Below are positions 9,518 through 45,057 of a DNA stretch of 64,000 bases, piece after piece; position 1 is the first letter of the stretch, and each line of letters begins with the position of its first letter. Origin of the DNA: a candidate division WWE3 bacterium (GTDB lineage Bacteria; Patescibacteriota; 4484-211; GCA-002791395). A program made the translations under genes and the position numbers. A model generated the notes under the pieces. That model made no database searches, was not told where the DNA came from, and saw nothing but the letters and a program-made list of their open reading frames with translations. The stretch spans positions 22,797 through 86,796 of the forward strand of contig JAAXWF010000001.1 in NCBI GenBank assembly GCA_013335095.1, given 5' to 3'.

Positions 9518-11182
9518 ATGCGAAAAAAGAATTTACACGTTTCAAGTGACCTAATCATCTTGATTGGAGGTTTCTCAGCAAGCCTTATTGGTGTATTTCT
9601 TGTCGTCTCAGCTTTATTTCCTACCAGCAATAATTCAAATATATTGACCACTAAACTAACACAGACACAAGCGGCAAACAGTTTTACCGATACATTTGAT
9701 GGGAAACCGACATCACCACAACCATTTACCCAAATAGGACAAAGCACCTGGGATATAGCCATACAATCACGGAATCCAGACACGTGGGATACGTTAGTTC
9801 CATTCCAGATGATGCATGGACCTAACTGTGAACCACCACTTATGACTGGCGCGACAGCTCCATATGATCATCATGAATTAATGGTTCATGACTGGGATGG
9901 GAATTATGATAGTGCGGTATTTAAATGTGCCGACCATATCATGACCGGAATTTATGGAATTGGGCGATCTATTAATGATGGATATGCAATGATTGCATTA
10001 ACTCCTAATCAAATGGTTGATTTTACCAACGGACCCGCAACAATACGGTGGGATATGACGACGTTTAGAACAACTCAACGTGATTGGGTTGATGTGTGGA
10101 TCACGCCCTATGACGATAACCTCCAGTTACCATTTGATACAGGTGATGTAGATTTACAAGGAATGCCAATGAATACAGTGCACTTAACAATGACCGCACC
10201 GAATGATAATTCAAAAACAGGTTTCAAACCGACCATAATTATTAATGGACAAGATACCGGTGAATTTCAACAGTTTACCGGTGACTATGATTCATTTTTG
10301 GCCTATGAAGATTATTTACCATCAAAAGCAGGAGATCCAAAACGTCGTGATACGTTTGAAATTACCATAAGCAAAACTCATCTTAAAATGTGTATGCCTC
10401 AAGATACCACTGATAATGCTCCATCTGAGACACTGTGTTGGGTCGATAAGAATATCAAGTCATTACCATTCACAAAAGGGGTGGTTCAATTCGCCCATCA
10501 CTCGTATACACCAAATAAAGACTGCGATTTTTACACGCCCTTACCATGCGGTCCGGACACGTGGCATTGGGATAATATATCAATTTCACCTTCGGTACCA
10601 TTTACCATGATTAAAGCCGATCAAAGAGCGGTACGAGGCGAGACACAGGTTGTCACATTTACTCAATCGGCTCCGGCGAACGCTAAATTGCGCTTTAGTG
10701 CAATTGGATCAGTTCAACTCAGTTTTAATAACGGTTCTTTTCAGTCTGTTACAAACCAATCATCAACCTTATACCACTCAGATCATTTTGCTTCATATTT
10801 TGTAAATATCCCACAAGGGACATCAACAGTTCGGTTTAAATTATCCGGCTCAGAGGTTATGGCAAAAGATTTCGCGATTTGGTCACAAGCAGCGCCAACA
10901 GGGACAACTCCGACACCAATCATAACAACGGCTCCATCACCCACCACACAACCAACACGCACTCCAACCCCAACGATTACGGGAACGACTGTTCTAGGAG
11001 ATATTAACCGGGACCGTATCGTTAATGTATTAGATCTGGGAATACTTGTTGGACTGTATGGGCGTCAAACATCTAGTGATGTAGCAAATGTGAACTTGCA
11101 GCGATCTGATTTAAATGGAAATGGATTAATAGACATTTACGATATTGGAATCCTCTCGGCAAACTACGGTAAAACATACTAG
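9518..11182 (+). CDS. Secreted protein with Pro/Thr linker and C-terminal type-I dockerin module
   Basis: N-terminal signal anchor; PT-rich linker; duplicated Ca-binding segments DINRDRIVNVLD / DLNGNGLIDIYD. Confidence 0.6.
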   Translation: MRKKNLHVSSDLIILIGGFSASLIGVFLVVSALFPTSNNSNILTTKLTQTQAANSFTDTFDGKPTSPQPFTQIGQSTWDIAIQSRNPDTWDTLVPFQMMHGPNCEPPLMTGATAPYDHHELMVHDWDGNYDSAVFKCADHIMTGIYGIGRSINDGYAMIALTPNQMVDFTNGPATIRWDMTTFRTTQRDWVDVWITPYDDNLQLPFDTGDVDLQGMPMNTVHLTMTAPNDNSKTGFKPTIIINGQDTGEFQQFTGDYDSFLAYEDYLPSKAGDPKRRDTFEITISKTHLKMCMPQDTTDNAPSETLCWVDKNIKSLPFTKGVVQFAHHSYTPNKDCDFYTPLPCGPDTWHWDNISISPSVPFTMIKADQRAVRGETQVVTFTQSAPANAKLRFSAIGSVQLSFNNGSFQSVTNQSSTLYHSDHFASYFVNIPQGTSTVRFKLSGSEVMAKDFAIWSQAAPTGTTPTPIITTAPSPTTQPTRTPTPTITGTTVLGDINRDRIVNVLDLGILVGLYGRQTSSDVANVNLQRSDLNGNGLIDIYDIGILSANYGKTY

Positions 11183-24521: not shown

Positions 24522-24542
24522 CCGAGTAGGTCACTGTTAGTC

Positions 24543-24577: not shown

Positions 24578-24675
24578 CCCGCAGCACCAAACTATAGGAC
24601 TCCATGGTATATAATTACACTTAAGTTTCCGATAAATAAGACTAGGAGCCAGTCATAGCTGGTACAGGAGGTCGG

Positions 24676-25227: not shown

Positions 25228-25231
25228 ATAG

Positions 25232-25268
25232 CTGCCGGGGCTTAGCACAACTAGTCCCCGGCTTTTTT
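25232..25268 (+). terminator. Hairpin gccgggg...ccccggc followed by T6
   Basis: Inverted repeat plus T-tract. Confidence 0.7.
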
Positions 25269-25346
25269 ATTTCTTAATTTCATAAAAGTTGATACTAGAG
25301 CCTATAATATTAATACGGTGATTTAAGGATCGTAGAGGAGGCAAGT

Positions 25347-26955: not shown

Positions 26956-29262
26956 ATGATCGAAAAGACCTCTAAACAATTAATAACCTTCATGACGATT
27001 GTGAGTTCATTCATGATCGTTGCATTGTCCCTACTATTTATTGATAGTTACGGTTCTAAAACAGCTTCAGATAATCGAAAATCAGCCAGTGCTGCTCAAA
27101 ATACTGGTAATTATGTACTCTATACCCAAACAGACATTGACAATATCAAGGCTCAAATCAATTCAAATACCACCATTAAAAATGCTTATAACGACCTCAT
27201 CACTAAGGCAAATGAAGATTTAAATGGCTCATTCCATTTCTACGGTGGAACTTCACATACCGCAAATAGCCAAGCATCACGAGCCGCGCTTAGACTAGCT
27301 CTGGCATACAGGCTTACGGGAGATACGCAGTATGCATCGAAAGCAAAAAGCGTGGTTATGACCGTTACGAGTGCATCAACTATGGTAACTGATGATCCAT
27401 CAATACCCGACAAAGCAACCGCATCGGATAGTCTTTTGTTATATGGGGTCGATACTCCAGGCATGATTCTTGCAGCTGATTTTCTTGATACTTATCCTGG
27501 GTTCAATTCAAGTGAAAAGCAGTCGGTAAAAGATTGGTTTAACGCGACAGCGCGAAGCGCTATGACTCTTCATTACAACACCAAAGTACAAGCTGAAGCC
27601 GGACGTGAATATATGGATCTTGGGTTTACGAACTATAACAGTTGGAGAGTTGTTTTAATTATGACTGCGGGAATATATACCAAAGATTCTGAATTATTTA
27701 ATTTTGCAGTTAGTTATTTTAAAAACTCCCTCATGGAAGAAATGTTTAATTCTTTAGGAGTAGCCGTATGGGAAGTACGAAGAATCACGACAAAAACCTA
27801 TTACTACTCTCACTATACAATTTCGGGAATGCTGCAATTAATTATACTTGCGCGAAAACAAGGAGTCGATCTTGCCAGCTATAAAAATTCTGCCGGGGCG
27901 AATCTTAAAACAGTTCTGGATTATTATTACCAGTTTGCGAACGGTACGCCGTGGCCTTATGAAGGAATAGAAGGGTCTAATCCTCCAAAATATTCTGATG
28001 TATGGGAAAACTTTGAAGCAGGTTATTTTATGTATAAAGACTCAAGATATAACACGCTCATAAATTCCTATCGACCGACATACTGGAGGTCTGGCATCAT
28101 GACTCCCAACACGTTATTTTTCTTAAGTAGTGATTTCAATAATCCTTCAAATCCGATAACGCCAAACCCGACCACAACAGGTGCGCCTACAGCAACACCC
28201 ATACCAGTACCGACCGGTCGAATAAATCCATCGCCACGATTGCCGATCTCGCCATATAATTCGACCGGAACGCCGTGGGCAATACCCGGAACAATTGAGG
28301 CGGAAAGTTTCGATAATGGTGGTGTGGGGATTGCCTACTACGACACTGATTCAGACAATATTGGCGGAGCATATCGATCGACAAGCATTGATATTGATCC
28401 CTACAGTAACGGTAATTACAGCGTAGCATGGATTAGGCCAACAGAGTGGCTACGGTATTCGGTGTTTGTCCAAACACGCGGGATATATGACATTAAACCT
28501 CGAGTCGCCTTCAAAGGACCGGCAGGAAATTTTGATATTGAGATTGATGGCAAAGTCGTCGGTAGTTTTACCATACCTGATACAAAAGAATTTAGCGCAT
28601 TTACCGATATAACCGTAGGAAATATTCAGCTAGAAACCGGATATCATGTACTTCGAATTATTGCAGTCAGTGCAAATGAGGGTAGTTACGATGGATTGAT
28701 GGGAGATATTGATAAATTCACCTTCGTCTTAACTAAAAACCTTTCTACGTCACCGAATACCCAATCGCCCGCTGCGGTACCAGGAAAAATCGAGGCGGAA
28801 AACTTTGACCGAGGTGGCGAAGGGATCGCATATCATGACACCAAGACTGGCAACGAACTTGTGATTCAAAATAAAGGCGGGATTGATTACCGACCAGGAG
28901 AAGGTGTCGATATTGGGAAAAACGCAAATGGCGCAACCTATGTCGGCTGGATTGAAAATACCGAATGGTTAGTCTACACCATTAACGTAACTGAAGATGG
29001 CTATTACCACCTATCGGCACAAGCTGGATTTAATGGCGCTGGTGGAAGCTTCGATCTTGAGATTGATGGTAAGACTCAAGGGCACTTTACTATTCGAGAT
29101 TTGGGTGCATGGGATATTTACACCACCATACCTGCATGGCCTCCGTATATCAGGTTAACCAAAGGTACACATACCCTTCGGCTCATCGCCAAACAACGAC
29201 CTGGTGTATCCACCTATCAAAATCTTCTCGGTGATATCGATTATTTCGAAATTTCAAAGTAA
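26956..29262 (+). CDS. Secreted alginate-lyase/heparinase-II/III-like (alpha/alpha)6 toroid domain protein with two C-terminal CBM6-like modules
   Basis: Signal peptide; AYRLTGDTQYASKA motif shared with 32473-34503 and 48996-50897; two repeats IEAE(S/N)FD.GG.GIAY.DT...W..Y. Confidence 0.5.
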   Translation: MIEKTSKQLITFMTIVSSFMIVALSLLFIDSYGSKTASDNRKSASAAQNTGNYVLYTQTDIDNIKAQINSNTTIKNAYNDLITKANEDLNGSFHFYGGTSHTANSQASRAALRLALAYRLTGDTQYASKAKSVVMTVTSASTMVTDDPSIPDKATASDSLLLYGVDTPGMILAADFLDTYPGFNSSEKQSVKDWFNATARSAMTLHYNTKVQAEAGREYMDLGFTNYNSWRVVLIMTAGIYTKDSELFNFAVSYFKNSLMEEMFNSLGVAVWEVRRITTKTYYYSHYTISGMLQLIILARKQGVDLASYKNSAGANLKTVLDYYYQFANGTPWPYEGIEGSNPPKYSDVWENFEAGYFMYKDSRYNTLINSYRPTYWRSGIMTPNTLFFLSSDFNNPSNPITPNPTTTGAPTATPIPVPTGRINPSPRLPISPYNSTGTPWAIPGTIEAESFDNGGVGIAYYDTDSDNIGGAYRSTSIDIDPYSNGNYSVAWIRPTEWLRYSVFVQTRGIYDIKPRVAFKGPAGNFDIEIDGKVVGSFTIPDTKEFSAFTDITVGNIQLETGYHVLRIIAVSANEGSYDGLMGDIDKFTFVLTKNLSTSPNTQSPAAVPGKIEAENFDRGGEGIAYHDTKTGNELVIQNKGGIDYRPGEGVDIGKNANGATYVGWIENTEWLVYTINVTEDGYYHLSAQAGFNGAGGSFDLEIDGKTQGHFTIRDLGAWDIYTTIPAWPPYIRLTKGTHTLRLIAKQRPGVSTYQNLLGDIDYFEISK

Positions 29263-32472: not shown

Positions 32473-34503
32473 CTACGAGGTTCGCTGATACGAAGCAATT
32501 AATAAAGACAGATCAAATACATTAACTGATCCATCTTGGTTTATGTCACTTCGGCGCTCATGTAAAGGGCTCTGTGCAGTAGGACTTGTACCGTAAAAAC
32601 TGGCAAGAATTCCCAGATCAAAAATATTTGTCACACCATCCTGGTTGATGTCGGATGAATGAATCGGAGTCTGAGTAGGTGTAACGGATTGAGTAAATTT
32701 GCGTAGATTATTAGAGTCAATTACAACCGGAGTAGTACTATCAGACGATTTCCAGAAGACCGTAGTATGGTCTTCACCAATACTTTCAACATGTAACACT
32801 TCCAAATAATAACTATTTCCATTTATAAGCTGGATAGGATTGCTTTGGATCTGGCTAACCGAGCAACTTTGGGCTTCACTTATTGAGCAAGAGTAGTCTT
32901 GATAGTTAAGCCACCGATCTATATGAGCAATTAATTGCTTTGAATCGGGTTCTGCACTCGTACCCAAATAGAGAACAGCCGCATCATCTGCCGTAAGGTA
33001 AAACGTATAGGAACCTGTTTTCTGAGGAATTAATATAGCACGCATTCGTGAACCAAAATTAGAGTCGATCGTAGAAGCCCCTTGATGTAACGGTGCGTTT
33101 AATGATGAAATATAGGTGGTTGAAGTCGGTGAATTAGGGAATCGCTCATCTTTAGATAGATCACTGATAAGCGCATTGGGTTGCGTTTGTATCGTATCCC
33201 ATCGTTCATACAATACATTTGTTTGCCCTGGTGTTAGAGTTGGTGTTATTGATGGTTTTGGAGTCGGCGTAGTTGTTGGCACACGGGTAGGAGTCGGATC
33301 TCCTGGCTTGGCTAAATGCCTTCCGTTATAAAGATAAACGAATGGGCCAAATAAAACAGAATGAGCAGTTGGCCTTTTAGTCCCAGACCAATCACGATTT
33401 TGTTCTATAATCTTTAAATATTCAGAATTACCCCAATACGCATATGCAGCTTGATATGTAGCGGCATAGTCCGTATGGATGAACGGATAACTCACACCCT
33501 TTCCTCCAACATGCGGCCACGCGGTACCAGTAAAATACTTTACCAGTGAATCAAACGCCAGTTTTAAATTTCGACCATCTGAGGTTGTATAATCCCACAA
33601 ATTTACACCTTGTTGACGTGCGATTTCGGCTAAAACAACCATTCCCGATAACGAGAATCCCGTGTAGTACCAGGTATCATCTCCATTTGATTCAAATCGA
33701 GCCATTTCGTGACCGATAAAACCATTAGCTTCAATAACCCGAGGATTAGAAGGCCAACAGTGACCGGTCGCACTTTCGAGATAGCGTTTATATGCATTAA
33801 ATGCGACATCTTTAAGATTAGAATCATTCGTAACGACTCCAGCCGAAGCAACAAGGGAGGCCCGAAACCATTTCATGTTAGTAATACAGTTATCATTCAA
33901 ATTCGGAGTATTACTTAATATATCGTATGCAAGGTTATGAAAAAAAGTTCGAATGGTTTCTTTTTTAGCTGAATCAAAACCGCTATAGTCCTCGACTAAA
34001 TTAAAAGCTTGAGCCAACAGTGTGTACTGGACCCCCCACGATAATTCCCGATTAGGACGATCAGCAATAGGTACAGATTTTATATCGGGCGTAAAGTTCG
34101 TTTGCGATGACAGTAAATTAATTGTTGCTTGTGCATACTCTCCTTTTCCGGTTATTTGGTACGCCCAAGCAGTGTGAATTGCAGTCCGACCTTCATCGGC
34201 AAATTTTCCGGAAACTTCGGACCAGATCCCACCATTTTTAATGGCGTCATCGGCGACGCTCACAACAAAATCACGAGATTGGCTATTTAAATCAAGCGAA
34301 GTGGACAAAGATTTCATTTCCTGTCGTTCGGTAGCATTTGCGATGACCGAACCTGTTGCGGCCTGAGTTATGACCGGAGGTGATTCGATTGTTTGAGAAC
34401 TAAAGATATAAAATGAAACACCTATAACCGACAACCAGAAAAATGCTAAATCTAAAGGGATTATTCTTTTTATAGATTTTTTCGCGATTAAATACGATGA
34501 CAT
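32473..34503 (-). CDS. Secreted alginate-lyase-like toroid domain protein with PA14 module and C-terminal dockerin
   Basis: N-terminal TM anchor; AYQITGKGEYAQA motif; PA14-like GSYTFYLTADDAAVLYLG; dockerin DINQDGVTNIFD / DINQDGSVNVFD. Confidence 0.5.
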   Translation of the reverse strand: MSSYLIAKKSIKRIIPLDLAFFWLSVIGVSFYIFSSQTIESPPVITQAATGSVIANATERQEMKSLSTSLDLNSQSRDFVVSVADDAIKNGGIWSEVSGKFADEGRTAIHTAWAYQITGKGEYAQATINLLSSQTNFTPDIKSVPIADRPNRELSWGVQYTLLAQAFNLVEDYSGFDSAKKETIRTFFHNLAYDILSNTPNLNDNCITNMKWFRASLVASAGVVTNDSNLKDVAFNAYKRYLESATGHCWPSNPRVIEANGFIGHEMARFESNGDDTWYYTGFSLSGMVVLAEIARQQGVNLWDYTTSDGRNLKLAFDSLVKYFTGTAWPHVGGKGVSYPFIHTDYAATYQAAYAYWGNSEYLKIIEQNRDWSGTKRPTAHSVLFGPFVYLYNGRHLAKPGDPTPTRVPTTTPTPKPSITPTLTPGQTNVLYERWDTIQTQPNALISDLSKDERFPNSPTSTTYISSLNAPLHQGASTIDSNFGSRMRAILIPQKTGSYTFYLTADDAAVLYLGTSAEPDSKQLIAHIDRWLNYQDYSCSISEAQSCSVSQIQSNPIQLINGNSYYLEVLHVESIGEDHTTVFWKSSDSTTPVVIDSNNLRKFTQSVTPTQTPIHSSDINQDGVTNIFDLGILASFYGTSPTAQSPLHERRSDINQDGSVNVFDLSLLIASYQRTS

Positions 34504-35892: not shown

Positions 35893-36567
35893 ATGAATAT
35901 ATTAGTCGTTGAAGACGAAGTTAAATTAGCCAATGCAATCAAACGTGCGCTGGAAATACAAACATATGCGGTAACCGTTGCGTATGATGGGCAAACTGGT
36001 TTAGATTTAGCCGTATCAGAAGAGCTTGATCTCATCATATTAGATTTAATGCTCCCAAAAATCGATGGACTTGAAATATGCCGGATGATACGAAACCAAG
36101 GCATTCATACTCCAGTTTTGATACTAACCGCCAAAGGTCTCGTAAGCGATAAAATTAACGGACTCGATACAGGGGCAGACGATTACATGGTCAAACCATT
36201 CTCTTTTGAAGAATTATTTGCACGAATTAGAGCATTAACACGAAGGCCCCGCCACGTAATTAATCCGGTACTAACTGTTGAGGATTTACTGCTCGACCCT
36301 TCAAAATTTACGGTCAGTAGAAATGAGATTGGAATTAGTTTATCCAGCAAAGAATTTGCCTTACTTGAATATTTAATGCGAAACAAAGGCTCAATATTAA
36401 CTAAAACCCAAATTATTGGACATATTTGGGACTATGATGCCGATGTATTACCCAACGTCGTTGAGGTTCATATAAAACACCTTCGCGATAAAGTCGATAA
36501 ACCATTTGAAAAACCATTAATAATGACAGTTCGAGGTTTTGGATACATGATTGGAGCAAAGGAATGA
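35893..36567 (+). CDS. OmpR-family response regulator
   Basis: Receiver domain (DLMLP, TAKG) plus winged-helix output; TATAAT 8 nt upstream. Confidence 0.85.
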   Translation: MNILVVEDEVKLANAIKRALEIQTYAVTVAYDGQTGLDLAVSEELDLIILDLMLPKIDGLEICRMIRNQGIHTPVLILTAKGLVSDKINGLDTGADDYMVKPFSFEELFARIRALTRRPRHVINPVLTVEDLLLDPSKFTVSRNEIGISLSSKEFALLEYLMRNKGSILTKTQIIGHIWDYDADVLPNVVEVHIKHLRDKVDKPFEKPLIMTVRGFGYMIGAKE

Positions 36568-37592
36568 CTATATTCCATAACGCCCGGATAACTTTAACCG
36601 CATGGTATTTAATAATTATTGCGATGATCAGTTTATGCTTTAGCGTTGCTTTTTATCAGGCTTCGACACGAGAAATAGATCGGTTAATTAATCGAATACA
36701 AATGGACCAGCAAAGGTCATCAAACCAAACAGCACCTCCCCCGCCCCATATGATGAATACACCCAGTATAAGTGATCTGGAACAATTAAAAGAACGGCTC
36801 AAAATTACACTGATTATTATTAACGGAGTAATCGTGGCGACTTCGGGAGTTGCGAGTTATTTTTTAGCTAGCCGAACACTTAAGCCTATTAAGCAAATGG
36901 TCGATGAGCAACAAGAATTTATTTCAAGTGCTTCACATGAACTACGCACACCAATTGCAGTACTGCGGGCGGAAATGGAAACAAGCCTCATGGAAAAGCA
37001 TATTACCGATGCCCAGGCACGCGCCCTGATTAAAAGTAATTTAGAAGAGGTTTCATCAATGCAATATCTGGTAAATAATCTGTTAAAGATAACAAAATTA
37101 CATAATGGTAATCACGAACTCCAACTCACAAAGAAAGAATTAGTATTGTCCGAGATACTCGAAACAACATTTACCCGCCTACAAACATTAGCTGATCCGA
37201 AAAAAATATCAATATCTACGTCGGTGCCTGATATAAAAATTATTGCTGATGAGGAGAGCATCAGAGAACTATTCACAATCATAATAGACAACGCGATTAA
37301 ATATAGTCGACCGTCAAGTACTATACAGATCAAAGCACACCAGGAGCAGCATATGGCTCATATAACCATAACCGATACTGGAATCGGAATCCCACCGCAA
37401 GATATTCCGCATATTTTTGAACGGTTTTATCGTTCAGATAAATCGCGATCACAAACCGAGGGATTTGGGCTCGGCTTACCGATCGCTCAAAAAATAGTCG
37501 AACAGCATCATGGTAAAATCTTTATTACAAGCAAAGTCGGAAAAGGAACGACAGTTCATATAGATCTTCCCATTTTTCACTCACATTCTTAA
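36564..37592 (+). CDS. Sensor histidine kinase
   Basis: H-box SASHELRTPIA; G2 box GFGLGLPIA; two TM helices; 4-nt overlap with the regulator gene. Confidence 0.85.
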   Translation: MTIFHNARITLTAWYLIIIAMISLCFSVAFYQASTREIDRLINRIQMDQQRSSNQTAPPPPHMMNTPSISDLEQLKERLKITLIIINGVIVATSGVASYFLASRTLKPIKQMVDEQQEFISSASHELRTPIAVLRAEMETSLMEKHITDAQARALIKSNLEEVSSMQYLVNNLLKITKLHNGNHELQLTKKELVLSEILETTFTRLQTLADPKKISISTSVPDIKIIADEESIRELFTIIIDNAIKYSRPSSTIQIKAHQEQHMAHITITDTGIGIPPQDIPHIFERFYRSDKSRSQTEGFGLGLPIAQKIVEQHHGKIFITSKVGKGTTVHIDLPIFHSHS

Positions 37593-37640
37593 TACGAACC
37601 TTTAAGCAAAGGTTAAGATGGATTTTGTAAAACGACTCTC

Positions 37641-38054
37641 ATGAAACAACACAATCACACATACCGACTCTCAAAGTTCTTGCTCATCGGTGCACTCGCG
37701 ACTTTAATCGATTTAGCCTTGTATGTCATTTTGTGTAATCGACTACATTTAATTCCATCGGTGGCGGCGAGCGTTTCGTTTTCATGTTCAACTCTTATAA
37801 ATTTTTCGCTGAATAATCGGATCACGTTTTTATCATCTGATCGAACGTACTTTGAAAAAATAGCTCGATTCTATACCGTCGCAATCGGTGGATTAATACT
37901 TACATATCTAGGCATAAGCCTCTTAACGATGTCGTTCGGATTCGACTACTTAATAGCTAAAGTTTGTGTTGTCATTCTCGTAACAATCTACAATTATCTC
38001 TTGCAAAGTAGAGTAACTTTTAATGTATCTCAGAATAACTTAAGCCGAAGTTAA
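37641..38054 (+). CDS. GtrA-family membrane protein
   Basis: Four TM helices with GtrA-like N-terminus. Confidence 0.65.
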   Translation: MKQHNHTYRLSKFLLIGALATLIDLALYVILCNRLHLIPSVAASVSFSCSTLINFSLNNRITFLSSDRTYFEKIARFYTVAIGGLILTYLGISLLTMSFGFDYLIAKVCVVILVTIYNYLLQSRVTFNVSQNNLSRS

Positions 38055-38078
38055 GAATTATCAGATACTATTCCAAAC

Positions 38079-40235
38079 ATGGAAAAGATAAAGAATTTGG
38101 TAAAAAATCACGCGGAAAAGATTGCACTAACTGCGGTTCTATTGGTTTCACTAACAATCGAAATAGCACTCTTATTAAAGAACGACTATGGTAATACCTA
38201 TTATGCGGCTGCAGTAAGAAGCATGCTTCAAAGCTGGCACAATTTCTTTTTTGTTTCATTTGACCCAGCCGGCTTCATATCTGTTGATAAGCCCCCATTT
38301 GGATTATGGATACAAACCGTTTCTGCGTTTATTTTTGGATATCATGGATGGTCACTTTTACTACCTCAAGCGCTTGCACATGTTGCATCAGTAGGAATTC
38401 TTTATATCTTGGTTAAAAAATACTACGGTACAATCTCGGCTTTAATATCGGCCTTTGTTTTATCAATTACACCAATTAGCGTAGCAGTCGCGAGTACCAA
38501 TCAACTTGATAGTACGCTTGTACTAATTCTCTTATTAGCGACATGGAGTCTGTTTACGAGCATCGAGACAAAAAAAATACTCTGGCTGATTATTTCATTT
38601 ATTCTTGTGGGTATTGGGTTTAATACCAAAATGATGGCTGCATATATGATCTTGCCGGCATTAGTTATAACTTACTTTTTTGCAATAAAAGGTCAATGGA
38701 AACAAAAAATTCTGAACCTGTCCATCGCAAGTGTATTTCTTGTCACGGTTTCCCTTTCTTGGGCAATCGCAGTTGATTTAACACCAGCACAAAATCGCCC
38801 GTATGTAGGATCAAGCGAAACAAATTCCGCCCTAAATCTAGCCTTAGGTTATAACGGATTACAACGCCTTACCGGAATGCAATTCGGTAAAACTGAAGCA
38901 ACAGAGCCGGTAGCACAATCAGATCAAAGCGCCCCAGAAACACCAACAGGAAATATACCCGATAAAGGCACGATGCCAGGACCTCAAGGCGGCGGACCAG
39001 GCGGTTTTTCTGGTCAACCGGGTGTATTCAGGTTATTTCAACAGAACTTAGGTGGACAGATCAGTTGGCTACTCCCGTTTGCAATGGCATCAATCTTTGT
39101 TGTACTCACTCGCAAAAGACTTCGCTGGCATCTTAGTAAAGAACAACATCCAACGATACTGTGGGGAATATGGCTCATTACCTGCGGAGTCGTGTTTAGC
39201 TTTGCTGGTTTTATGCATGAATATTACACCGTACTGATGGCTCCCGCATTGGCCGCCCTCGTTGGTATAGGCGCATCGATTTTATGGGGTGAGTATAAAG
39301 GGAACTCCTGGAGACAATGGGTTCTACCAATCGCCTTAGGAATAACCGCAATCGGACAATCCATAATTCTTTCTTACTTTTCTTCTTATCATTTCTTAAT
39401 ACCAATAATAGGTATCGGTGCCGGGGTATCAGCCTTAATTCTCTTAATTGCAAAATCGGGTTTACATAAAGCATTCTCCCGATATTTACTCGCAATGTAT
39501 ATCTTGGGTTTAACCAGCTTAGGTATTACTAGTGTTGTTTGGACATCGTATTCATTTACTCACCAAATTAACCAAACGATCGTTACCGCAGGGCCATCCG
39601 CCGAAGGAAATCGATTTGGATTTGCTGATGACAATAATCGAGATGGATTAAACGAAGATGCAGAAAACCAACAGAAGATGCCGCCAATTGGGATAGATGG
39701 TATGGGTGAATTCCGATCCATTAGTGATGATTTAATTGTGTACCTGGAACAACATCAAGAGAATGCGACATATCTCGTTGGGACCAGTTCTTCACATAGC
39801 GCGGATTCGATTATTATAAAAACGGGTAAGGCGGTTATGGCTATGGGTGGTTTTTCAGGATCAGACACCGCGATATCGCTTAAAGAATTAAAAAGTACGA
39901 TTGCTAATGGTGAAATCCGATATTTCATCACCGAATCAGATCGAAGTGGCTTTGGTAGCCAAGAGATGAATCGACAAATACATGATGGCACACAATTTTT
40001 GGATAATTCAAATCAAGATAATACGCAACCGTCACCACTTATGTTTGGTCAAAACAGGCCCCCTATGGGTGGTGACAGTAATCAGGGGCGGGTTGGATTT
40101 GGGGGGCAGAATTCAGAGATATCTGAGTGGATTACCAAACAATGTACACTCGTATCATCAGATGAGTGGCAATCTGATTCAACTGAATCACAACAACAAT
40201 CTACGTTATACGACTGCAAATCAGTGACACAATAA
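38079..40235 (+). CDS. Glycosyltransferase family 39 / ArnT-PMT-like membrane glycosyltransferase with long Gly/Gln-rich extracytoplasmic tail
   Basis: DPAGFISVDKPPFGLW loop motif after TM1; multiple TM helices. Confidence 0.65.
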   Translation: MEKIKNLVKNHAEKIALTAVLLVSLTIEIALLLKNDYGNTYYAAAVRSMLQSWHNFFFVSFDPAGFISVDKPPFGLWIQTVSAFIFGYHGWSLLLPQALAHVASVGILYILVKKYYGTISALISAFVLSITPISVAVASTNQLDSTLVLILLLATWSLFTSIETKKILWLIISFILVGIGFNTKMMAAYMILPALVITYFFAIKGQWKQKILNLSIASVFLVTVSLSWAIAVDLTPAQNRPYVGSSETNSALNLALGYNGLQRLTGMQFGKTEATEPVAQSDQSAPETPTGNIPDKGTMPGPQGGGPGGFSGQPGVFRLFQQNLGGQISWLLPFAMASIFVVLTRKRLRWHLSKEQHPTILWGIWLITCGVVFSFAGFMHEYYTVLMAPALAALVGIGASILWGEYKGNSWRQWVLPIALGITAIGQSIILSYFSSYHFLIPIIGIGAGVSALILLIAKSGLHKAFSRYLLAMYILGLTSLGITSVVWTSYSFTHQINQTIVTAGPSAEGNRFGFADDNNRDGLNEDAENQQKMPPIGIDGMGEFRSISDDLIVYLEQHQENATYLVGTSSSHSADSIIIKTGKAVMAMGGFSGSDTAISLKELKSTIANGEIRYFITESDRSGFGSQEMNRQIHDGTQFLDNSNQDNTQPSPLMFGQNRPPMGGDSNQGRVGFGGQNSEISEWITKQCTLVSSDEWQSDSTESQQQSTLYDCKSVTQ

Positions 40236-40270: not shown

Positions 40271-41002
40271 ATGCGAATCACACAGATAATTCATATGAAT
40301 GATTTTATTCCACGTCTAAAGAAAGAATTGCTCGACCTGAGTGATTCAGAAGCAGAGAAAAACGGAAAAAAGTTTTTTAAGGAAGAAGTACAGTTATATG
40401 GTATTAAATCCTCAATATTAAAAAAAGTTAGTACACAGTACTTCAACGAAATTAAACAGCTACAGAAAAAACATATTTTTGATATCTGTGAACAACTATG
40501 GAAATCGGAAATGCTCGAAGAACAAATCATTGCCTGCAATTGGTCCTATCACGTTAATACATCATATTCTAAAGACGACATCGAGGTGTTTGAAAAATGG
40601 CTCAATACATATGTATCGAACTGGGCTACCTGCGATACTTTTTGTAATCATTCTGTTGGAACAGTGGTTGAAATGTATCCTGATCTAATTGAGAGGGTCA
40701 TAAAGTGGACGCAATCACCCAACCGTTGGATGAAAAGAGGCGCAGCGGTATCATTAATAATTCCGGTACGGAAAGGTTTGTTTATCGATGAGGTATTCAA
40801 AATATCTGATTTATTGATAACGGATAAAGATGATCTTGTACAAAAAGGATATGGATGGATGCTAAAGGCTGCAAGTGAGTCATCAATTTCAACGGTGTAC
40901 CAGTACATGATTGAACATAAATCGATAATGCCCAGAACTGCACTACGGTACGGAACAGAAAAAATGCCTGAAGATATGCGCAAAAGAGTACTCGCAAAAT
41001 AA
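40271..41002 (+). CDS. DNA alkylation repair enzyme (AlkD/AlkC-like HEAT-repeat) family protein
   Basis: NWATCDTF...RWMKRGAAVSL pattern; start 40271 or 40295. Confidence 0.5.
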   Translation: MRITQIIHMNDFIPRLKKELLDLSDSEAEKNGKKFFKEEVQLYGIKSSILKKVSTQYFNEIKQLQKKHIFDICEQLWKSEMLEEQIIACNWSYHVNTSYSKDDIEVFEKWLNTYVSNWATCDTFCNHSVGTVVEMYPDLIERVIKWTQSPNRWMKRGAAVSLIIPVRKGLFIDEVFKISDLLITDKDDLVQKGYGWMLKAASESSISTVYQYMIEHKSIMPRTALRYGTEKMPEDMRKRVLAK

Positions 41003-41863
41003 TTACGAACCGTACTGACCAGCTAGGATACCCAAGTCATACACATCAATCACACCGTTGTTTGTTAAATCACATCGTCGCATAACTTCGGTGCTTTCAC
41101 TGGTAATAGCTACATCATAGTATGACGCAAAGATACCGACATCAAAAACATTGACGATACCATCTTGATTAATATCAGCCGAGTGAGTTGGTGTAATAGA
41201 AACAGCTGGCCCAATCTGTATAGTTGAATTCTGTACTGCGGTTAGCTGGTCAGAAGGAGGGGTATTACCTATCACGTTTGAATCGTTCTTATTACCCGAT
41301 GAATATACCATTGTTAGTGTCGTTGATCCTGTTGCTAAAGGTTGAAAGACTAAGTCAAATAAAGGGTTGTTTTCATCGAGAGTACCTGAGAAACCTGATA
41401 GGGCTTGATTATTAACCGAATCATACGCCATGACACCTACATTTATAGTACCCGATGATTCAGCTTGATTTACGACCAACGTGCCGTTAAATGCGAAGTA
41501 GGAATCACTCGGTAAAAAAGTCCGCAAATTAGTACCTTCTGCTTTTGGCACTACCGAAACTAATCGCAACTTGGACCGATCATATGTAATTTGGACATCA
41601 ACTCCAGTCACAACACCACTATTTGTGTTTAATGTTACAGGGACATGCACCTCTGATCCAATCTGTGCGCTACTATTAAGCGGAAATCCAAGTTGGCTGG
41701 AAAATGCGAATGAACTGGAACCGGGAAATAATAATTGTAATAAACGTTTGCCACCAGAGGGAAAAGACACGGCAATAACAAGGAATACAATTAACCCAAC
41801 AGAACTTAATGTCACCAGAAGTGGATCCATCTTGGTTTTAGATTTCTTTTCGGTAGCTTCCAT
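41003..41863 (-). CDS. Secreted protein with cohesin-like beta-sandwich domain (aa about 60-200) and C-terminal dockerin
   Basis: VHVPVTLNTNSGVVTGVDVQITYDRSKLRLVSV...FAFNG pattern resembles cohesin; dockerin DINQDGIVNVFD / DLTNNGVIDVYD. Confidence 0.45.
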   Translation of the reverse strand: MEATEKKSKTKMDPLLVTLSSVGLIVFLVIAVSFPSGGKRLLQLLFPGSSSFAFSSQLGFPLNSSAQIGSEVHVPVTLNTNSGVVTGVDVQITYDRSKLRLVSVVPKAEGTNLRTFLPSDSYFAFNGTLVVNQAESSGTINVGVMAYDSVNNQALSGFSGTLDENNPLFDLVFQPLATGSTTLTMVYSSGNKNDSNVIGNTPPSDQLTAVQNSTIQIGPAVSITPTHSADINQDGIVNVFDVGIFASYYDVAITSESTEVMRRCDLTNNGVIDVYDLGILAGQYGS

Positions 41864-41887: not shown

Positions 41888-42460
41888 TTATACAATCAGT
41901 AATACAACACCCGAGATAACGAGCACCACAATTAATACGGAGAATAGATTAGTCGCATTTACCACTCCAGTATTCGGCAGATTATTGCTCGACCCGAGAG
42001 CGCTGGACGTTGGTGAGGGGGTAATAGTACTTGATGTGGGTGTTGGTGAAGGTGTTGATGTAGAAGAGGCTGCGACCGTTGGAGTCGGCGTATTACTTGG
42101 CGTTGGAGTAGGAGTACTTGTAGGTGCCGTACAAACGGAAGCCTGATAATTTGGATCCAGGTAATATACGACATCAGCTAGATGAGACCCTGGTATTAGC
42201 GAGGTAATATCAGTACCGCATGGATTGCCTTGATGAGGAGTACTGCGGGTTCCTTTTTCAAAAATATTGTTGTTATAGATATACAGACATCGAGAATCAG
42301 CAGCAACTTCGTCAACAGTCATACACGTTTGTGAGTGGACAATTAAATGATGTCGAATAAACAATAAATATGCAGCTGAAAAAGCAATTATCGACACCGC
42401 GAATAACCGCCGAACAGAATATCTTGAATTAAGTACTTTCGTATATAATAGCCTGCGCAT
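41888..42460 (-). CDS. Surface protein: N-terminal TM, Cys-containing module, PT-rich linker, LPNTG sortase-like motif followed by hydrophobic tail
   Basis: LPNTG 28 aa from C-terminus followed by a hydrophobic stretch; no charged tail. Confidence 0.5.
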   Translation of the reverse strand: MRRLLYTKVLNSRYSVRRLFAVSIIAFSAAYLLFIRHHLIVHSQTCMTVDEVAADSRCLYIYNNNIFEKGTRSTPHQGNPCGTDITSLIPGSHLADVVYYLDPNYQASVCTAPTSTPTPTPSNTPTPTVAASSTSTPSPTPTSSTITPSPTSSALGSSNNLPNTGVVNATNLFSVLIVVLVISGVVLLIV

Positions 42461-42472
42461 TATAAATGTGAA

Positions 42473-43813
42473 ATGGTTATAGATAATGTTATCATAAAAA
42501 AAGTACCCATGAATATATTAAAAAAAAACGTTGGATGGATAGTACTAATAGTACTGTGCTTAGTACCTCTGGTTATGTGGTGGCCACTTATTCCTATGAG
42601 CTTACGCTTTCGTAAGCCGGTTAACACGCTCACAACCATCACTCAAATATCCGGATTAATCGGGATGGTAATGTTTGCCTACTCGCTAATACTGAGTGCC
42701 CGCATTAAAATATTTGAAAAATTATTCGGTGGATTGAACCGAGTATATTTAGCCCACCATCAAATTGGCGGCATTGCTTTTATACTAATAATGCTTCATC
42801 CACTATCGGTGCTTGCGGCATACGCTCCGATATCGCTTGATTTGGCGATTAGGTACATAATTCCCTCTTCCGACTGGGCAAATAATTTTGGCCTGCTTGC
42901 GTTTGTATTACTAATGGCGGCGTTGGTAATCACGTATTACACCAAATTACCGTATGAAATCTGGCGATGGACTCATAAAGTACTTGGAATATCATTGGCA
43001 ATAGGAGTGCTGCACACGCTCCAGGTTTCCAGTGACATTAAAAGAAATGCCCCCCTCCGCTATTATTACTTAGCTCTGATTGGCATTGCATTAGTTCTTT
43101 TTCTTTACCGAAGTGTGTTGAGCAGATTATTGGTTAAAAAATATCGATACAAGGTTAAGTCAGTAACATCCCCCGTAGCTAATGTTGTAGCGATAGAGTT
43201 TTCTCCTTTAGCCAAGCCGATGACGTATGAAGCTGGTCAGTTCGTCTTTTTACAGCTAAAAGATAAGACCGTTGGTATGGAATCGCACCCGTTCTCAATA
43301 GCTTCAGCACCGACTTCAACCGACTTACGAATTGTTATTAAATCATTAGGGAACTACACCGCTAAACTAACTGCAATTCAGCCTGGTACCGAAGCGTTAA
43401 TAGAAGGACCGTTTGGTAGGTTTAATTATACCCATTATCAATTTACTAATCAGATCTGGGTTGCTGGTGGTATTGGGATTACTCCATTTTTAAGCATGGC
43501 ACAAAGTTTACAGGACCCTAATTATTCAGTTACGCTCTTTTACAGCGTCATTACCGAAGCAGAGCTCATCTATAGAGAGATCTTTGAACAAATCGCAGCA
43601 AATAACCCCAATTTCAAGTTTTATCCATTTATCTCAGAAAAACAAAAACGTATAACTGGTGATTTTGTAATCGAACAAGCCGGATATGATATTACCAAGA
43701 CGGATTTCTTGGTATGTGGACCACCGCCAATGATGAAGAGCCTACGAGAACAAATTCACAATCGAGGGGTATCATATGGCAGAATCCATACCGAAGAGTT
43801 TACAATGAACTAA
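42473..43813 (+). CDS. Ferric-reductase-like transmembrane flavocytochrome (FRD TM domain plus FAD/NAD-binding FNR module)
   Basis: HPFSIAS, GGIGITP, CGPPPM motifs; six TM helices with conserved His; start 42473 or 42509. Confidence 0.65.
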   Translation: MVIDNVIIKKVPMNILKKNVGWIVLIVLCLVPLVMWWPLIPMSLRFRKPVNTLTTITQISGLIGMVMFAYSLILSARIKIFEKLFGGLNRVYLAHHQIGGIAFILIMLHPLSVLAAYAPISLDLAIRYIIPSSDWANNFGLLAFVLLMAALVITYYTKLPYEIWRWTHKVLGISLAIGVLHTLQVSSDIKRNAPLRYYYLALIGIALVLFLYRSVLSRLLVKKYRYKVKSVTSPVANVVAIEFSPLAKPMTYEAGQFVFLQLKDKTVGMESHPFSIASAPTSTDLRIVIKSLGNYTAKLTAIQPGTEALIEGPFGRFNYTHYQFTNQIWVAGGIGITPFLSMAQSLQDPNYSVTLFYSVITEAELIYREIFEQIAANNPNFKFYPFISEKQKRITGDFVIEQAGYDITKTDFLVCGPPPMMKSLREQIHNRGVSYGRIHTEEFTMN

Positions 43814-44223: not shown

Positions 44224-45057
44224 ATGAACACACTTAAATTCGAGTTTATTAATCTTTTTTCTCTAATAAGAAAGCATAAGCTTCGTACCGTGTTAGTGTT
44301 TTTAGTAACCTATTTTTCGCTCCAAACCGTATATTACATAACGTATATGAAAAAAGTCTCCGCTCAAACCTGCTTTACTCAAGCAATGCTTGATGCCGAA
44401 AGAGATCAACAAAAGCGATGTCTGTATGCATATAACGGAGAAGTTTGGGATCCATCTGGCGGTAGTTTTAGATTACATAAAAGTCAACCGTGTGCTGAAG
44501 ACGTATATTGTACGATAGTAAATGTACATTTTGTTAACGATAACATTATTGATCGAATAAAAGATGTTAGTCGATATTTCAGACCATCATTATATGTAGG
44601 AACAATATGTTCCGGCGAGACAATTAGAAAATCAGCAGGCTCAAAAACAGATACATCAAGCGCCATTTGTAGTGGGGCGACATCAACTCCGACACCGACA
44701 AGAACTCCCACGCCATCACCAACTCGAACCCCGACGCCGACAGCAACCAAAACGCCAACTCCAACACAGGGAACAACACCGACGATTCAACCAACAGCAA
44801 CAAGTACACCACGACCGAGCAATACACCAACGATATCGCCAACACGTACCCCGACACCAACAACACCAGCCAATCATTGCCAACCATCAGGAGATGTTGA
44901 TTGTTCAGGAAAAGTAAATGCGCTTGATGCAGCTATTGTCATGATGGCACTCGGACAACCATCATCAACTAATCCTGCTGCAGATATAAATAACTCAGGC
45001 ACAATAGATGTTGAAGATTTGAGGATTGTTACAACGGCTTACGGGACACAGCTGTAA
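44224..45057 (+). CDS. Secreted protein sharing the Cys-module of 41888-42460, PT-rich linker, C-terminal dockerin
   Basis: AQTC...RCLYAYN...C block; dockerin DVDCSGKVNALD / DINNSGTIDVED. Confidence 0.5.
   Translation: MNTLKFEFINLFSLIRKHKLRTVLVFLVTYFSLQTVYYITYMKKVSAQTCFTQAMLDAERDQQKRCLYAYNGEVWDPSGGSFRLHKSQPCAEDVYCTIVNVHFVNDNIIDRIKDVSRYFRPSLYVGTICSGETIRKSAGSKTDTSSAICSGATSTPTPTRTPTPSPTRTPTPTATKTPTPTQGTTPTIQPTATSTPRPSNTPTISPTRTPTPTTPANHCQPSGDVDCSGKVNALDAAIVMMALGQPSSTNPAADINNSGTIDVEDLRIVTTAYGTQL

What the first reader, a model, noticed from the sequence alone, without database searches (positions are those of the whole stretch)
41003..41863. Candidate cohesin-plus-dockerin adaptor among many dockerin proteins
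At least six proteins in the window end or begin with type-I dockerin duplicated Ca-binding segments (9518-11182, 32473-34503, 41003-41863, 44224-45057, 48996-50897 N-terminal). No multi-cohesin scaffoldin is present. The 286-aa protein at 41003-41863 has, between its signal anchor and dockerin, a roughly 140-aa region whose strand pattern (G.EVHVPVTLNTN.G..GVDVQITYD...L..VSV..., FAFNG, INVGVMA) resembles a cohesin beta-sandwich. A protein with both a cohesin and a dockerin could be the anchoring or adaptor partner for the other dockerin proteins. It is transcribed just downstream of an LPNTG-motif surface protein.
Basis: inference. Interest (0 to 1): 0.6.

Follow-up and report, generated by a model that had tools for sequence, protein, structure and literature searches.

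The report
Cohesin-plus-dockerin adaptor protein in a CPR bacterium
The 286-residue protein really does combine one cohesin module and one dockerin module, the two halves of the "plug-and-socket" system bacteria use to assemble secreted enzymes. It is a new example of a known protein type in a tiny-genome candidate-phylum (WWE3) bacterium, not a new kind of system.

Summary
The ORF at 41003-41863 lies on the minus strand and encodes 286 aa. NCBI lists it as hypothetical protein HGA91_00355 from a candidate division WWE3 (CPR) bacterium.

**Domains**
- N-terminal hydrophobic helix, aa 14-33.
- Cohesin module, aa ~55-218. Pfam PF00963 scores 28.5 bits against a gathering score of 24.1. AlphaFold2 gives pLDDT 92-96, and the top 20 PDB fold matches are all cohesins (best E 4.6e-11, TM 0.78).
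- Ten-residue linker.
- Dockerin, aa 229-286, with two intact Ca-binding loops.

**Corrections to the finding**
- The window holds five dockerin proteins, not "at least six".
- This is the only cohesin in the window.

**Family**
The cohesin belongs to a family of at least 208 cluster representatives. About 90% have the same N-terminal hydrophobic segment and about half carry a C-terminal dockerin. The named members are CPR bacteria, including a paralog in the same genome.

**Best reading**
It is a monovalent adaptor or tether of a small non-cellulosomal cohesin-dockerin network. It would hold secreted alginate-lyase-family enzymes and other dockerin proteins near the cell. Its own dockerin is in the same sequence group as the cargo dockerins, so head-to-tail chaining is possible. 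Binding partners are inferred, not shown.

**Verdict:** new member of a known kind, moderate-low interest.

The parts
41003..41863 (-). Whole ORF, 286 aa plus stop. NCBI HGA91_00355 'hypothetical protein', candidate division WWE3 bacterium.
   Evidence: ORF list. 100% identical database entry on a 536-kb contig.
41765..41824 (-). N-terminal hydrophobic helix, aa 14-33 (LLVTLSSVGLIVFLVIAVSF), preceded by a Lys-rich n-region. It is an export signal or a signal anchor.
   Evidence: AF2 helix 14-33. Kyte-Doolittle 19-mer mean is 2.64. About 90% of family members have such a segment. Cleaved versus retained is not resolved.
41210..41701 (-). Cohesin module, aa ~55-218. It is a beta-sandwich with one inserted alpha-helix at aa 127-137.
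   Evidence: Pfam PF00963 28.5 bits vs gathering score 24.1. AF2 pLDDT is mostly 95-99 over this region. Top 20 Foldseek PDB hits are all cohesins. 42 of 76 aligned homologs hit PF00963 on their own.
41180..41209 (-). Short linker, aa 219-228 (PAVSITPTHS region).
   Evidence: Dip in pLDDT (76 in the full-length model, 86 in the TM-less model) between the two modules. Homologs carry Pro/Thr-rich linkers of 10 to ~190 aa at this position.
41006..41179 (-). Dockerin module, aa 229-286. Ca-binding loops at nt 41141-41176 (aa 230-241) and nt 41036-41071 (aa 265-276), each followed by a helix.
   Evidence: Pfam PF00404 21.8 bits, E 2.2e-4, just under the gathering score of 22.9. phmmer hit to the solved dockerin 2y3n_B, E 2e-4. 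AF2 helices at 239-247 and 274-282. Alignment with the four other window dockerins.
41888..42460 (-). Upstream same-strand gene, 190 aa: Cys-rich domain, Pro/Thr linker, LPNTG and a hydrophobic tail. Probably co-transcribed (24-nt gap).
   Evidence: no terminator-like site in the gap. Its N-domain is related to that of the dockerin protein at 44224-45057 (BLASTP E 1e-6). The pairing is not conserved next to homologs elsewhere.
32473..34503 (-). Candidate cargo: alginate-lyase-family (PF05426) + PA14 + C-terminal dockerin, 676 aa.
   Evidence: Pfam. Its dockerin is 44% identical to the target's dockerin and phmmer with the target's dockerin gives E 7.8e-17.
48996..50897 (+). Candidate cargo: N-terminal dockerin + alginate-lyase-family domain, 633 aa.
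   Evidence: Pfam. Dockerin 46% identical to the target's. phmmer E 1.1e-14.
9518..11182 (+). Candidate cargo: 554-aa secreted protein of unknown function with a C-terminal dockerin.
   Evidence: Pfam Dockerin_1 E 2.1e-4. Dockerin 48% identical to the target's. phmmer E 1.1e-13.
44224..45057 (+). Candidate cargo: 277-aa Cys-rich domain + Pro/Thr linker + a more divergent dockerin.
   Evidence: Pfam Dockerin_1 33.9 bits. Dockerin only 32% identical to the target's.

Best explanation
The gene encodes an exported, non-catalytic protein with one cohesin and one dockerin. By architecture it is a monovalent adaptor-type scaffoldin, part of a small non-cellulosomal cohesin-dockerin network in a CPR (WWE3) bacterium.

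Shown here:
- the two module identities;
- the export signal or anchor;
- the presence of four other dockerin-bearing secreted proteins within 32 kb;
- a paralog with the same architecture elsewhere in the genome;
- a sizeable family with the same layout.

Inferred:
- The cohesin face binds, in a Ca-dependent manner, the dockerins of co-encoded secreted proteins: two alginate-lyase-family enzymes, a 554-aa unknown protein, and possibly the Cys-rich protein.
- The protein's own dockerin plugs into another cohesin, either that of the paralog HGA91_03420 or that of another copy of itself. Its dockerin is in the same sequence group as the cargo dockerins, so head-to-tail chains or small clusters of enzymes would result.
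- These complexes are kept at the cell surface by the N-terminal helix if it is not cleaved, or otherwise by a cell-bound cohesin encoded elsewhere.
For: **Module identity.** Pfam Cohesin is above the gathering score and Dockerin_1 scores E 2.2e-4. A solved dockerin is hit at E 2e-4. AF2 pLDDT is 91.9 and 96.1. The top 20 PDB fold matches are all cohesins in both searches.

**Cargo candidates.** There are exactly five dockerin ORFs and one cohesin in the window. All have N-terminal hydrophobic export segments.

**Dockerin grouping.** The target's dockerin is 44-48% identical to three cargo dockerins and 57% to the paralog's. They share the DxNxDGxVNxFDLGIL...YG pattern.

**Family.**
- 208 representatives at E <= 1e-3 and 77 at E <= 1e-10.
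- About 90% have an N-terminal hydrophobic segment and at least 69 of 151 have a C-terminal dockerin motif.
- 42 of 76 hit Pfam Cohesin and 38 of 76 hit Dockerin_1.
- The paralog P0016 (HGA91_03420) has the same layout.

**Related CPR loci look like mini-networks.**
- Amesbacteria L004 has three tandem genes: Coh-Doc, Coh-Coh-Doc, and signal peptide-Coh-C-terminal TM anchor.
- Other loci place the homolog next to dockerin-bearing beta-helix proteins or a further cohesin gene, and one next to a GH43-like protein whose dockerin signal is not significant.

**Precedent.** Monovalent adaptors are a defined class (PMC11557425), exemplified by R. flavefaciens ScaC (PMC5429695). A cohesin that binds the dockerin of its own polypeptide and multimerises was shown for R. 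bromii Amy4 (PMC4611034).
Against: - No binding was tested, and cohesin-dockerin specificity cannot be read from sequence with these tools.
- Only 64 kb of a MAG with at least two contigs (536 kb and 359 kb) was visible, so the full cohesin and dockerin inventory is unknown, as is the presence of a cell-anchored cohesin or a sortase.
- The N-terminal segment resembles those of the putative cargo proteins. It may simply be a cleaved signal peptide, in which case this protein alone cannot tether anything to the cell.
- The dockerin misses Pfam's gathering score by 1.1 bits.
- In classical adaptors the adaptor's own dockerin differs in specificity from the cargo dockerins. Here they look alike, which fits chaining but not 'type switching'.
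- Gene neighbourhoods of homologs are not conserved, so no operon-level partner is defined.
Confidence: 0.6

Rival explanations
1. The protein is just another dockerin-bearing cargo. The cohesin-fold domain serves as a generic beta-sandwich (spacer, carbohydrate binder or adhesin) that does not bind dockerins. Only the dockerin is a functional interaction module, docking onto a real scaffoldin encoded elsewhere in the genome.
For: Cohesin folds occur in non-dockerin contexts; cohesin-like domains in eukaryotic TMEM132 are reported in the title and abstract of PMC6030884. Sequence similarity to solved cohesins is weak, with profile E-values of 0.014-0.9. About half of the family members lack a detectable dockerin and carry other C-terminal domains such as PA14, Big_7, CBM and fn3.
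Against: The fold matches are specifically to dockerin-binding cohesins, with a gap of about six orders of magnitude in E-value between the best cohesin and the first non-cohesin match. The domain passes Pfam's curated cohesin threshold. Cohesin and dockerin co-occur in about half of the family and in tandem cohesin gene clusters, as expected for an interacting pair. No other cohesin is present near the five dockerin genes.
Confidence: 0.15
2. The cohesin-dockerin modules mediate attachment of the ultra-small CPR cell to a host cell or to other cells, binding partners outside its own proteome. They do not organise its own enzymes.
For: Non-cellulosomal dockerins in another ultra-small lineage (Omnitrophota) have been proposed to act as adhesins (PMC10066038). 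The family's named members are CPR bacteria. No literature on the function of cohesin-dockerin systems in CPR was found.
Against: The same genome region supplies four plausible in-house dockerin partners of the same sequence group. Homolog loci carry both halves of the pair side by side. There is no evidence of host-derived partners.
Confidence: 0.12
3. Intramolecular clasp: the protein's dockerin folds back onto its own cohesin in cis across the 10-residue linker. This gives a self-capped monomer that neither chains nor carries cargo unless displaced.
For: The linker is very short, about 10 aa. The dockerin is in the same group as the presumed ligands. AF2 pTM rises to 0.80 for the TM-less construct, somewhat higher than expected if the dockerin were placed arbitrarily.
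Against: The pTM values (0.73 and 0.80) are ambiguous, and neither coordinates nor PAE were available. Homologs have linkers from 10 to ~190 aa, typical of independently acting modules. The known precedent, Amy4, was interpreted as intermolecular multimerisation (PMC4611034).
Confidence: 0.08
4. The cohesin resemblance is a chance match of a generic beta-rich region.
For: By word-indexed search the protein is nearly an orphan. There is no direct phmmer hit to any solved cohesin.
Against: Pfam is above the gathering score. 42 of 76 homologs independently hit PF00963. Two AF2 models each give cohesins as the top 20 fold matches. hhalign to a Pfam-positive Amesbacteria cohesin gives probability 98.9%, E 1.9e-17.
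Confidence: 0.02

Closest known systems
Monovalent adaptor scaffoldins of cellulosomes, e.g. Ruminococcus flavefaciens ScaC (class defined in PMC11557425; ScaC described in PMC5429695)
   Same: Non-catalytic secreted protein with an export signal, a single cohesin and a C-terminal dockerin. The cohesin recruits dockerin-bearing polysaccharide-degrading enzymes, and its own dockerin plugs into another cohesin.
   Different: ScaC's own dockerin (group 1) belongs to a different specificity group from the dockerins its cohesin binds (groups 3 and 6), so it acts as a type switch (PMC5429695). Here the protein's dockerin is in the same sequence group as the putative cargo dockerins. No multi-cohesin primary scaffoldin is visible. 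The cargo is alginate-lyase-family and unknown proteins, not plant-cell-wall glycoside hydrolases. The host is a CPR bacterium with a tiny genome.
Ruminococcus bromii Amy4 and the amylosome (PMC4611034)
   Same: A non-cellulosomal cohesin-dockerin system in which one polypeptide carries both a cohesin and a dockerin. In Amy4 the cohesin was shown to bind its own dockerin as well as other enzymes' dockerins, predicting multimers. That is the behaviour suggested here by the shared dockerin sequence group.
   Different: Amy4 is a 1,356-aa GH13 amylase. The WWE3 protein has no catalytic module. Self-recognition is experimentally shown for Amy4 and only inferred here.
Non-cellulosomal cohesin and dockerin modules in Bacteria and Archaea (Peer et al. 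2009; Archaeoglobus fulgidus cohesin-dockerin proteins). These are cited in the reference lists of PMC10066038 and PMC4611034; the original papers are not held in the library.
   Same: Few cohesin and dockerin genes per genome, found outside cellulolytic Firmicutes, with both modules sometimes on one protein.
   Different: The CPR family here has its own recurring layout: N-terminal hydrophobic helix, conserved juxtamembrane stretch, cohesin with LKTFLP and TTDSN motifs, Pro/Thr linker, dockerin. No paper in the held library describes it.
Clostridium acetobutylicum CohA2 (PDB 6kgc and related entries) and R. flavefaciens ScaB cohesin 3 (5aoz, 5m2s)
   Same: Best structural matches: Foldseek E 4.6e-11 to 9e-9, TM 0.68-0.78 normalised to the target.
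   Different: Only 13-21% sequence identity. The WWE3 cohesin is ~165 aa against ~140 aa and contains an 11-residue helix insertion (aa 127-137). It cannot be assigned to type I, II or III from these data; the best sequence-profile hit is a type-II-like A. cellulolyticus ScaB cohesin at only E 0.014.
Tandem cohesin gene trio in Candidatus Amesbacteria (GCA_001773695.1, locus L004 8001-11347)
   Same: The first gene (P0023, 281 aa) is a family member with the same helix-Coh-Doc layout.
   Different: There the Coh-Doc gene is followed by a Coh-Coh-Doc gene and a signal peptide-Coh-C-terminal TM anchor gene. That amounts to an explicit anchoring partner. No such partner is present in this window.

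Membership tests
Cohesin domain (Pfam PF00963) | Score at or above the curated gathering threshold of the family HMM | tested here: met
   28.5 bits vs 24.1, E 2e-6, aa 64-179 matching model positions 8-105 of 139. 42 of 76 homologs also match.
Cohesin domain (Pfam PF00963) | Cohesin-type beta-sandwich (jelly-roll) fold | tested here: met
Cohesin domain (Pfam PF00963) | Binds a dockerin | not testable with these tools
   Needs a binding assay or a multimer prediction. Only single-chain prediction without coordinates or PAE was available.
Dockerin (Pfam PF00404) | Score at or above the curated gathering threshold | tested here: not met
   21.8 bits vs 22.9 (E 2.2e-4), a narrow miss. The paralog P0016 (26.6 bits) and the homolog P0023 (31.2 bits) pass.
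Dockerin (Pfam PF00404) | Two duplicated ~22-residue segments, each an EF-hand-like 12-residue Ca-binding loop followed by a helix | tested here: met
   DINQDGIVNVFD (aa 230-241) and DLTNNGVIDVYD (aa 265-276), with Asp/Asn/Thr at loop positions 1, 3, 5, 9 and 12. AF2 helices at 239-247 and 274-282. phmmer hit to the solved dockerin 2y3n_B over aa 229-285, E 2e-4.
Monovalent adaptor scaffoldin (definition in PMC11557425) | One dockerin and exactly one cohesin in a non-catalytic secreted protein | tested here: met
   There are no other Pfam domains, and an N-terminal export segment is present.
Monovalent adaptor scaffoldin (definition in PMC11557425) | Own dockerin binds a different scaffoldin's cohesin, while its cohesin binds enzyme dockerins of another specificity (type switching) | tested here: inconclusive
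   Its own dockerin is 44-48% identical to the cargo dockerins with the same motif pattern, which argues against type switching. Specificity cannot be derived from sequence. The only other cohesin known in the genome is the paralog P0016.
Cellulosome (classical) | Multi-cohesin primary scaffoldin plus many dockerin-bearing plant-cell-wall glycoside hydrolases | tested here: not met
   There is a single cohesin in the 64 kb window. The dockerin proteins are PF05426 lyase-family or of unknown function, with no cellulase. The rest of the genome was not visible.
Cell-anchored (anchoring) scaffoldin | Cohesin plus a recognised cell-attachment element (SLH, LPXTG, C-terminal TM helix, LysM) | tested here: inconclusive
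   None of the listed elements is present. The 20-residue N-terminal helix could be an uncleaved anchor, but it resembles the N-termini of the putative cargo. No signal-peptide predictor was available.

The most novel reading that the evidence does not exclude
CPR bacteria possess their own clade of N-terminally membrane-anchored cohesin-dockerin proteins whose dockerin is recognised by the same cohesin type. These proteins polymerise head-to-tail into a surface-bound chain or lattice. The chain concentrates exopolysaccharide-degrading lyases and Cys-rich adhesin-like proteins at the contact zone with a host cell. This would be a minimal, self-assembling attachment-and-feeding scaffold for episymbionts rather than a cellulosome derivative.
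Probability: 0.12. Interest if true: 0.65.

Novelty: new member of a known kind. Interest (0 to 1): 0.35.

Why it matters
Cohesin-dockerin systems are mostly studied as cellulosomes of Firmicutes. Here a genome of about 1 Mb or less, from a lineage thought to live as an episymbiont, devotes several genes to the system. Those seen are at least five dockerin proteins and two Coh-Doc proteins, attached to alginate-lyase-family enzymes rather than cellulases.

If the inferred binding is real, these tiny cells organise or tether their few secreted polysaccharide-degrading enzymes at the surface. That bears on how CPR bacteria feed on, or attach to, biofilm matrix or host envelopes.

The protein is small, predicted with high confidence and non-catalytic, so the proposal is cheap to test. 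The pair could also add an orthogonal cohesin-dockerin specificity for designer scaffolds.

The module identities and the adaptor architecture themselves are well known.

Tried and rejected
1. **Word-indexed homology search.** With the protein and with the profiles A2 and A5 it was uninformative. It returned only 2 hits, or only short dockerin fragments, so it gave no census of the MAG's cohesins and dockerins.
3. **Locus retrieval with single proteins.** With P0016 on species-representative genomes it gave two distant loci and not the MAG itself. A metagenome scan with the target found nothing. The look-up of encoding contigs had no record for P0016.
5. **Cis packing of dockerin on cohesin.** I tried to infer it by comparing pTM with and without the N-terminal helix (0.73 vs 0.80). 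This was judged inconclusive without coordinates or PAE.
6. **L007 upstream gene.** I suspected that the 194-aa gene upstream of the closest homolog (L007 4566-5150) was a membrane-anchored mini-cohesin. Rejected: no Pfam hit and hhalign probability 2.9%.
7. **Conservation of the LPNTG pairing.** I tested whether the upstream LPNTG gene is a conserved partner. It is absent next to homologs in six other loci, and the L007 upstream protein is unrelated to it. The adjacency is probably local.
8. **Sortase.** None was found among the window ORFs scanned.
9. **Literature.** No paper on cohesin-dockerin systems in CPR/Patescibacteria was found in the held library.
Full report
**Observation**

The window contains a 286-codon ORF at 41003-41863 on the minus strand. 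It is 100% identical to NCBI HGA91_00355, a 'hypothetical protein' of a candidate division WWE3 bacterium, on a 536-kb contig.

Exactly five ORFs in the window carry duplicated dockerin-type Ca-binding segments:
- 9518-11182 (+)
- 32473-34503 (-)
- 41003-41863 (-)
- 44224-45057 (+)
- 48996-50897 (+), where the dockerin is N-terminal

This was shown by a motif scan, by phmmer with the target's dockerin, and by an HMM built from the five segments. That HMM gives E 2e-37 to 4e-28 for these five and 0.09 for the next ORF. 'At least six' is therefore an overcount by one.

Only one cohesin is present in the 64 kb. Neither the single sequence nor a 31-sequence family profile finds a second among all six-frame ORFs of at least 60 aa.

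The gene begins 24 nt after a same-strand 190-aa ORF that ends in LPNTG plus a hydrophobic tail. No terminator-like site lies between them.

**Identity of the modules**

Cohesin:
- Pfam's Cohesin model (PF00963) matches aa 64-179 at 28.5 bits, above its gathering score of 24.1 (E 2e-6).
- An AlphaFold2 model built on a 76-sequence alignment has mean pLDDT 91.9. A second model without the N-terminal helix, on a 50-sequence alignment, has pLDDT 96.1.
- In both Foldseek searches of the PDB the top 20 matches are solved cohesin modules. They include C. acetobutylicum CohA2, C. cellulolyticum, R. flavefaciens ScaB and ScaE, and C. perfringens.
- Probability is 1.00, best E is 4.6e-11, and TM is up to 0.78 normalised to the target.
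- The first non-cohesin matches (complement C3 or CVF domains and an antibody heavy chain) appear only above E 1e-4.
- A family profile against PDB sequences gives only weak hits (E 0.014-0.9), but 16 of 19 are cohesins.

It is not met on either count.

Dockerin:
- Dockerin_1 (PF00404) matches aa 229-280 at 21.8 bits, 1.1 bits under its gathering score (E 2.2e-4).
- The region aligns to the solved dockerin of 2y3n_B over aa 229-285 (E 2e-4).
- It shows two canonical 12-residue loops, each followed by a predicted helix.

**Anatomy**

| Residues | Feature |
|---|---|
| 1-13 | Lys-rich n-region |
| 14-33 | Hydrophobic helix |
| 35-45 | Second short helix, conserved among the closest homologs (P-x-G-x-x-L-L-x-x-L-x-P) |
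| ~55-218 | Cohesin with an 11-residue helix insertion at 127-137 |
| 219-228 | Linker |
| 229-286 | Dockerin |

No signal-peptide predictor was available. The 20-residue hydrophobic stretch is long for a cleaved signal. However, the putative cargo proteins of the same organism have similar N-termini. Whether the helix is cleaved or stays as an anchor is therefore open.

**Family and distribution**

An exhaustive HMMER scan was run with the cohesin region alone against 1.84 billion cluster representatives. It found 208 proteins at E <= 1e-3 and 77 at E <= 1e-10. The match almost always starts 40-60 residues from the N-terminus.

Of the 151 sequences examined (150 from the scan plus one):
- 135 have an N-terminal hydrophobic segment.
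- At least 69 have a dockerin-type motif near the C-terminus.

Of the 76 sequences aligned:
- 42 hit Pfam Cohesin on their own.
- 38 hit Dockerin_1 on their own.
- The others carry PA14, Big_7, CBM or fn3 domains instead.

Names are available for few members:
- two from this WWE3 MAG, the target and the 278-aa paralog HGA91_03420 on a 359-kb contig;
- one from Candidatus Amesbacteria;
- one locus from a 'Patescibacteria group bacterium' MAG.

The rest come from unnamed metagenome contigs. The family therefore looks CPR-centred, but that rests on four named cases.

**Context elsewhere**

Gene neighbours are not conserved as an operon, but cohesin or dockerin genes recur next to family members.

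| Locus | What lies next to the family member |
|---|---|
| L004 (Amesbacteria) | The Coh-Doc gene is followed by a Coh-Coh-Doc gene, then a signal peptide-cohesin-Pro/Thr linker-C-terminal TM helix gene. The last cohesin is homologous to the family (hhalign probability 98.9%, E 1.9e-17). This is a miniature anchor-plus-adaptor set. |
| L001 and L009 | Two adjacent cohesin genes |
| L006 | A NosD/beta-helix protein with a C-terminal dockerin nearby |
| L007 | A dockerin + beta-helix protein 3 kb away |
| L008 | An adjacent GH43-like protein whose dockerin signal is not significant (Pfam E 0.097; no hit to the window-derived dockerin HMM) |

The LPNTG gene upstream of the target has no counterpart in these loci.

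**How it most likely works**

Shown:
- an exported single-cohesin, single-dockerin protein;
- four other exported dockerin proteins within 32 kb;
- a paralog with the same design.

Two of the four dockerin proteins are PF05426 alginate-lyase-family enzymes. One carries PA14 and the other has an N-terminal dockerin.

Inferred from established cohesin-dockerin biology: the cohesin binds dockerins in a Ca-dependent way and so gathers these proteins.

The target's dockerin is 44-48% identical to three cargo dockerins and 57% identical to the paralog's. All share V/I-F/Y at loop positions 10-11 and the DLGIL...YG helix. This differs from R. flavefaciens ScaC, whose own dockerin belongs to a different group from those its cohesin binds (PMC5429695). 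It resembles R. bromii Amy4, whose cohesin was shown to bind its own dockerin and predicted to multimerise (PMC4611034).

I therefore favour an adaptor or tether that can also chain head-to-tail with itself or its paralog. It would be held at the surface either by its own N-terminal helix or by a cell-bound cohesin encoded outside the window.

Confidence:
- About 0.95 that the module assignment is right.
- About 0.6 for the adaptor or tether mechanism.
- About 0.35 for self-chaining specifically.

**Rivals**

- The cohesin fold is not dockerin-binding here and the protein is merely cargo (0.15).
- The modules bind partners on host or other cells (0.12).
- The dockerin clasps its own cohesin in cis across the short linker (0.08). 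The pTM values of 0.73 and 0.80 are ambiguous, and no coordinates or PAE were available.
- The resemblance is due to chance (0.02), effectively excluded.

**Comparison with known systems and novelty**

By architecture the protein meets the published definition of a monovalent adaptor scaffoldin: a dockerin plus a single cohesin (PMC11557425). It does not belong to a classical cellulosome. There is no multi-cohesin scaffoldin and no dockerin-bearing cellulase in view.

Non-cellulosomal cohesin-dockerin pairs across Bacteria and Archaea are an established phenomenon (Peer et al. 2009, cited in PMC10066038). Public databases already tag relatives with cohesin or dockerin domains.

The additions here are modest. 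There is a coherent, apparently CPR-centred subfamily with a fixed N-terminal helix-cohesin layout. It is linked to alginate-lyase-family cargo in a very small genome. I found no description of it in the held literature.

I rate it a new member of a known kind, interest 0.35.

**Limits**

- Only 64 kb of the genome was visible.
- The MAG could not be retrieved from the genome collection.
- The word-indexed protein search could not deliver a census.
- Binding specificity, cleavage of the N-terminal helix and oligomeric state all need the experiments or computations listed under next steps.

Noticed in passing
window 41888-42460 (-) and 44224-45057 (+): The 190-aa LPNTG protein and the 277-aa dockerin protein share a Cys-rich N-terminal domain (BLASTP E 1e-6). 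Each continues into a Pro/Thr-rich linker. The same module is apparently displayed either through a sortase-type signal or through a dockerin. The LPNTG signal lacks a basic tail (Pfam Gram_pos_anchor E 0.22). No sortase was found among the window ORFs scanned.
   Followed up: partly
window 26956-29262 (+), 32473-34503 (-), 48996-50897 (+): Three paralogous PF05426 alginate-lyase-family proteins with different appendages: CBM6 + CBM35 without a dockerin; PA14 + C-terminal dockerin; N-terminal dockerin. This is an unusual investment for a genome this small. The substrate is unknown.
   Followed up: partly
window ~12000-26000: This block is 52-55% GC against ~40% for the rest of the window. Most of its large ORFs have no Pfam hit. 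One is a ClpB/ClpC-like ATPase (15607-17838) and one a PLP-dependent decarboxylase (23097-24521). It may be a foreign island or a mis-assembled or mis-binned segment.
   Followed up: partly
window 1-64000: No tRNA genes (ARAGORN) and no Rfam family at gathering score were found anywhere in the 64 kb.
   Followed up: no
window 40271-41002 (+) / 41003-41863 (-): The DNA-alkylation-repair gene and the Coh-Doc gene converge with zero intergenic bases; their stop codons abut. The divergent pair 41888-42460 (-) / 42473-43813 (+) is separated by only 12 nt. The best promoter-like site (42472-42445, minus strand, 10/12) overlaps the annotated start of the LPNTG ORF, so that start codon may be wrong.
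   Followed up: no
L004 8001-11347 (Candidatus Amesbacteria, GCA_001773695.1, MEXN01000005.1): Three tandem cohesin genes: Coh-Doc (281 aa), Coh-Coh-Doc (530 aa), and signal peptide-Coh-Pro/Thr linker-C-terminal TM anchor (286 aa). This looks like a complete miniature anchoring-plus-adaptor cohesin-dockerin set in a CPR genome.
   Followed up: partly
L001 9336-10819 and L009 7983-10036: Further CPR or metagenome loci with two adjacent cohesin-family genes. Tandem duplication of single-cohesin genes seems to replace multi-cohesin scaffoldins in these lineages.
   Followed up: no
window 35893-40235 (+): A two-component system (response regulator and histidine kinase), a GtrA-like protein and a 718-aa PMT_2/YkcB-type glycosyl- or mannosyltransferase lie just to the left of the Coh-Doc gene on the + strand coordinates, separated from it by the DNA-alkylation-repair gene. 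The Pro/Thr-rich linkers of the neighbouring surface proteins could be glycosylation substrates.
   Followed up: no
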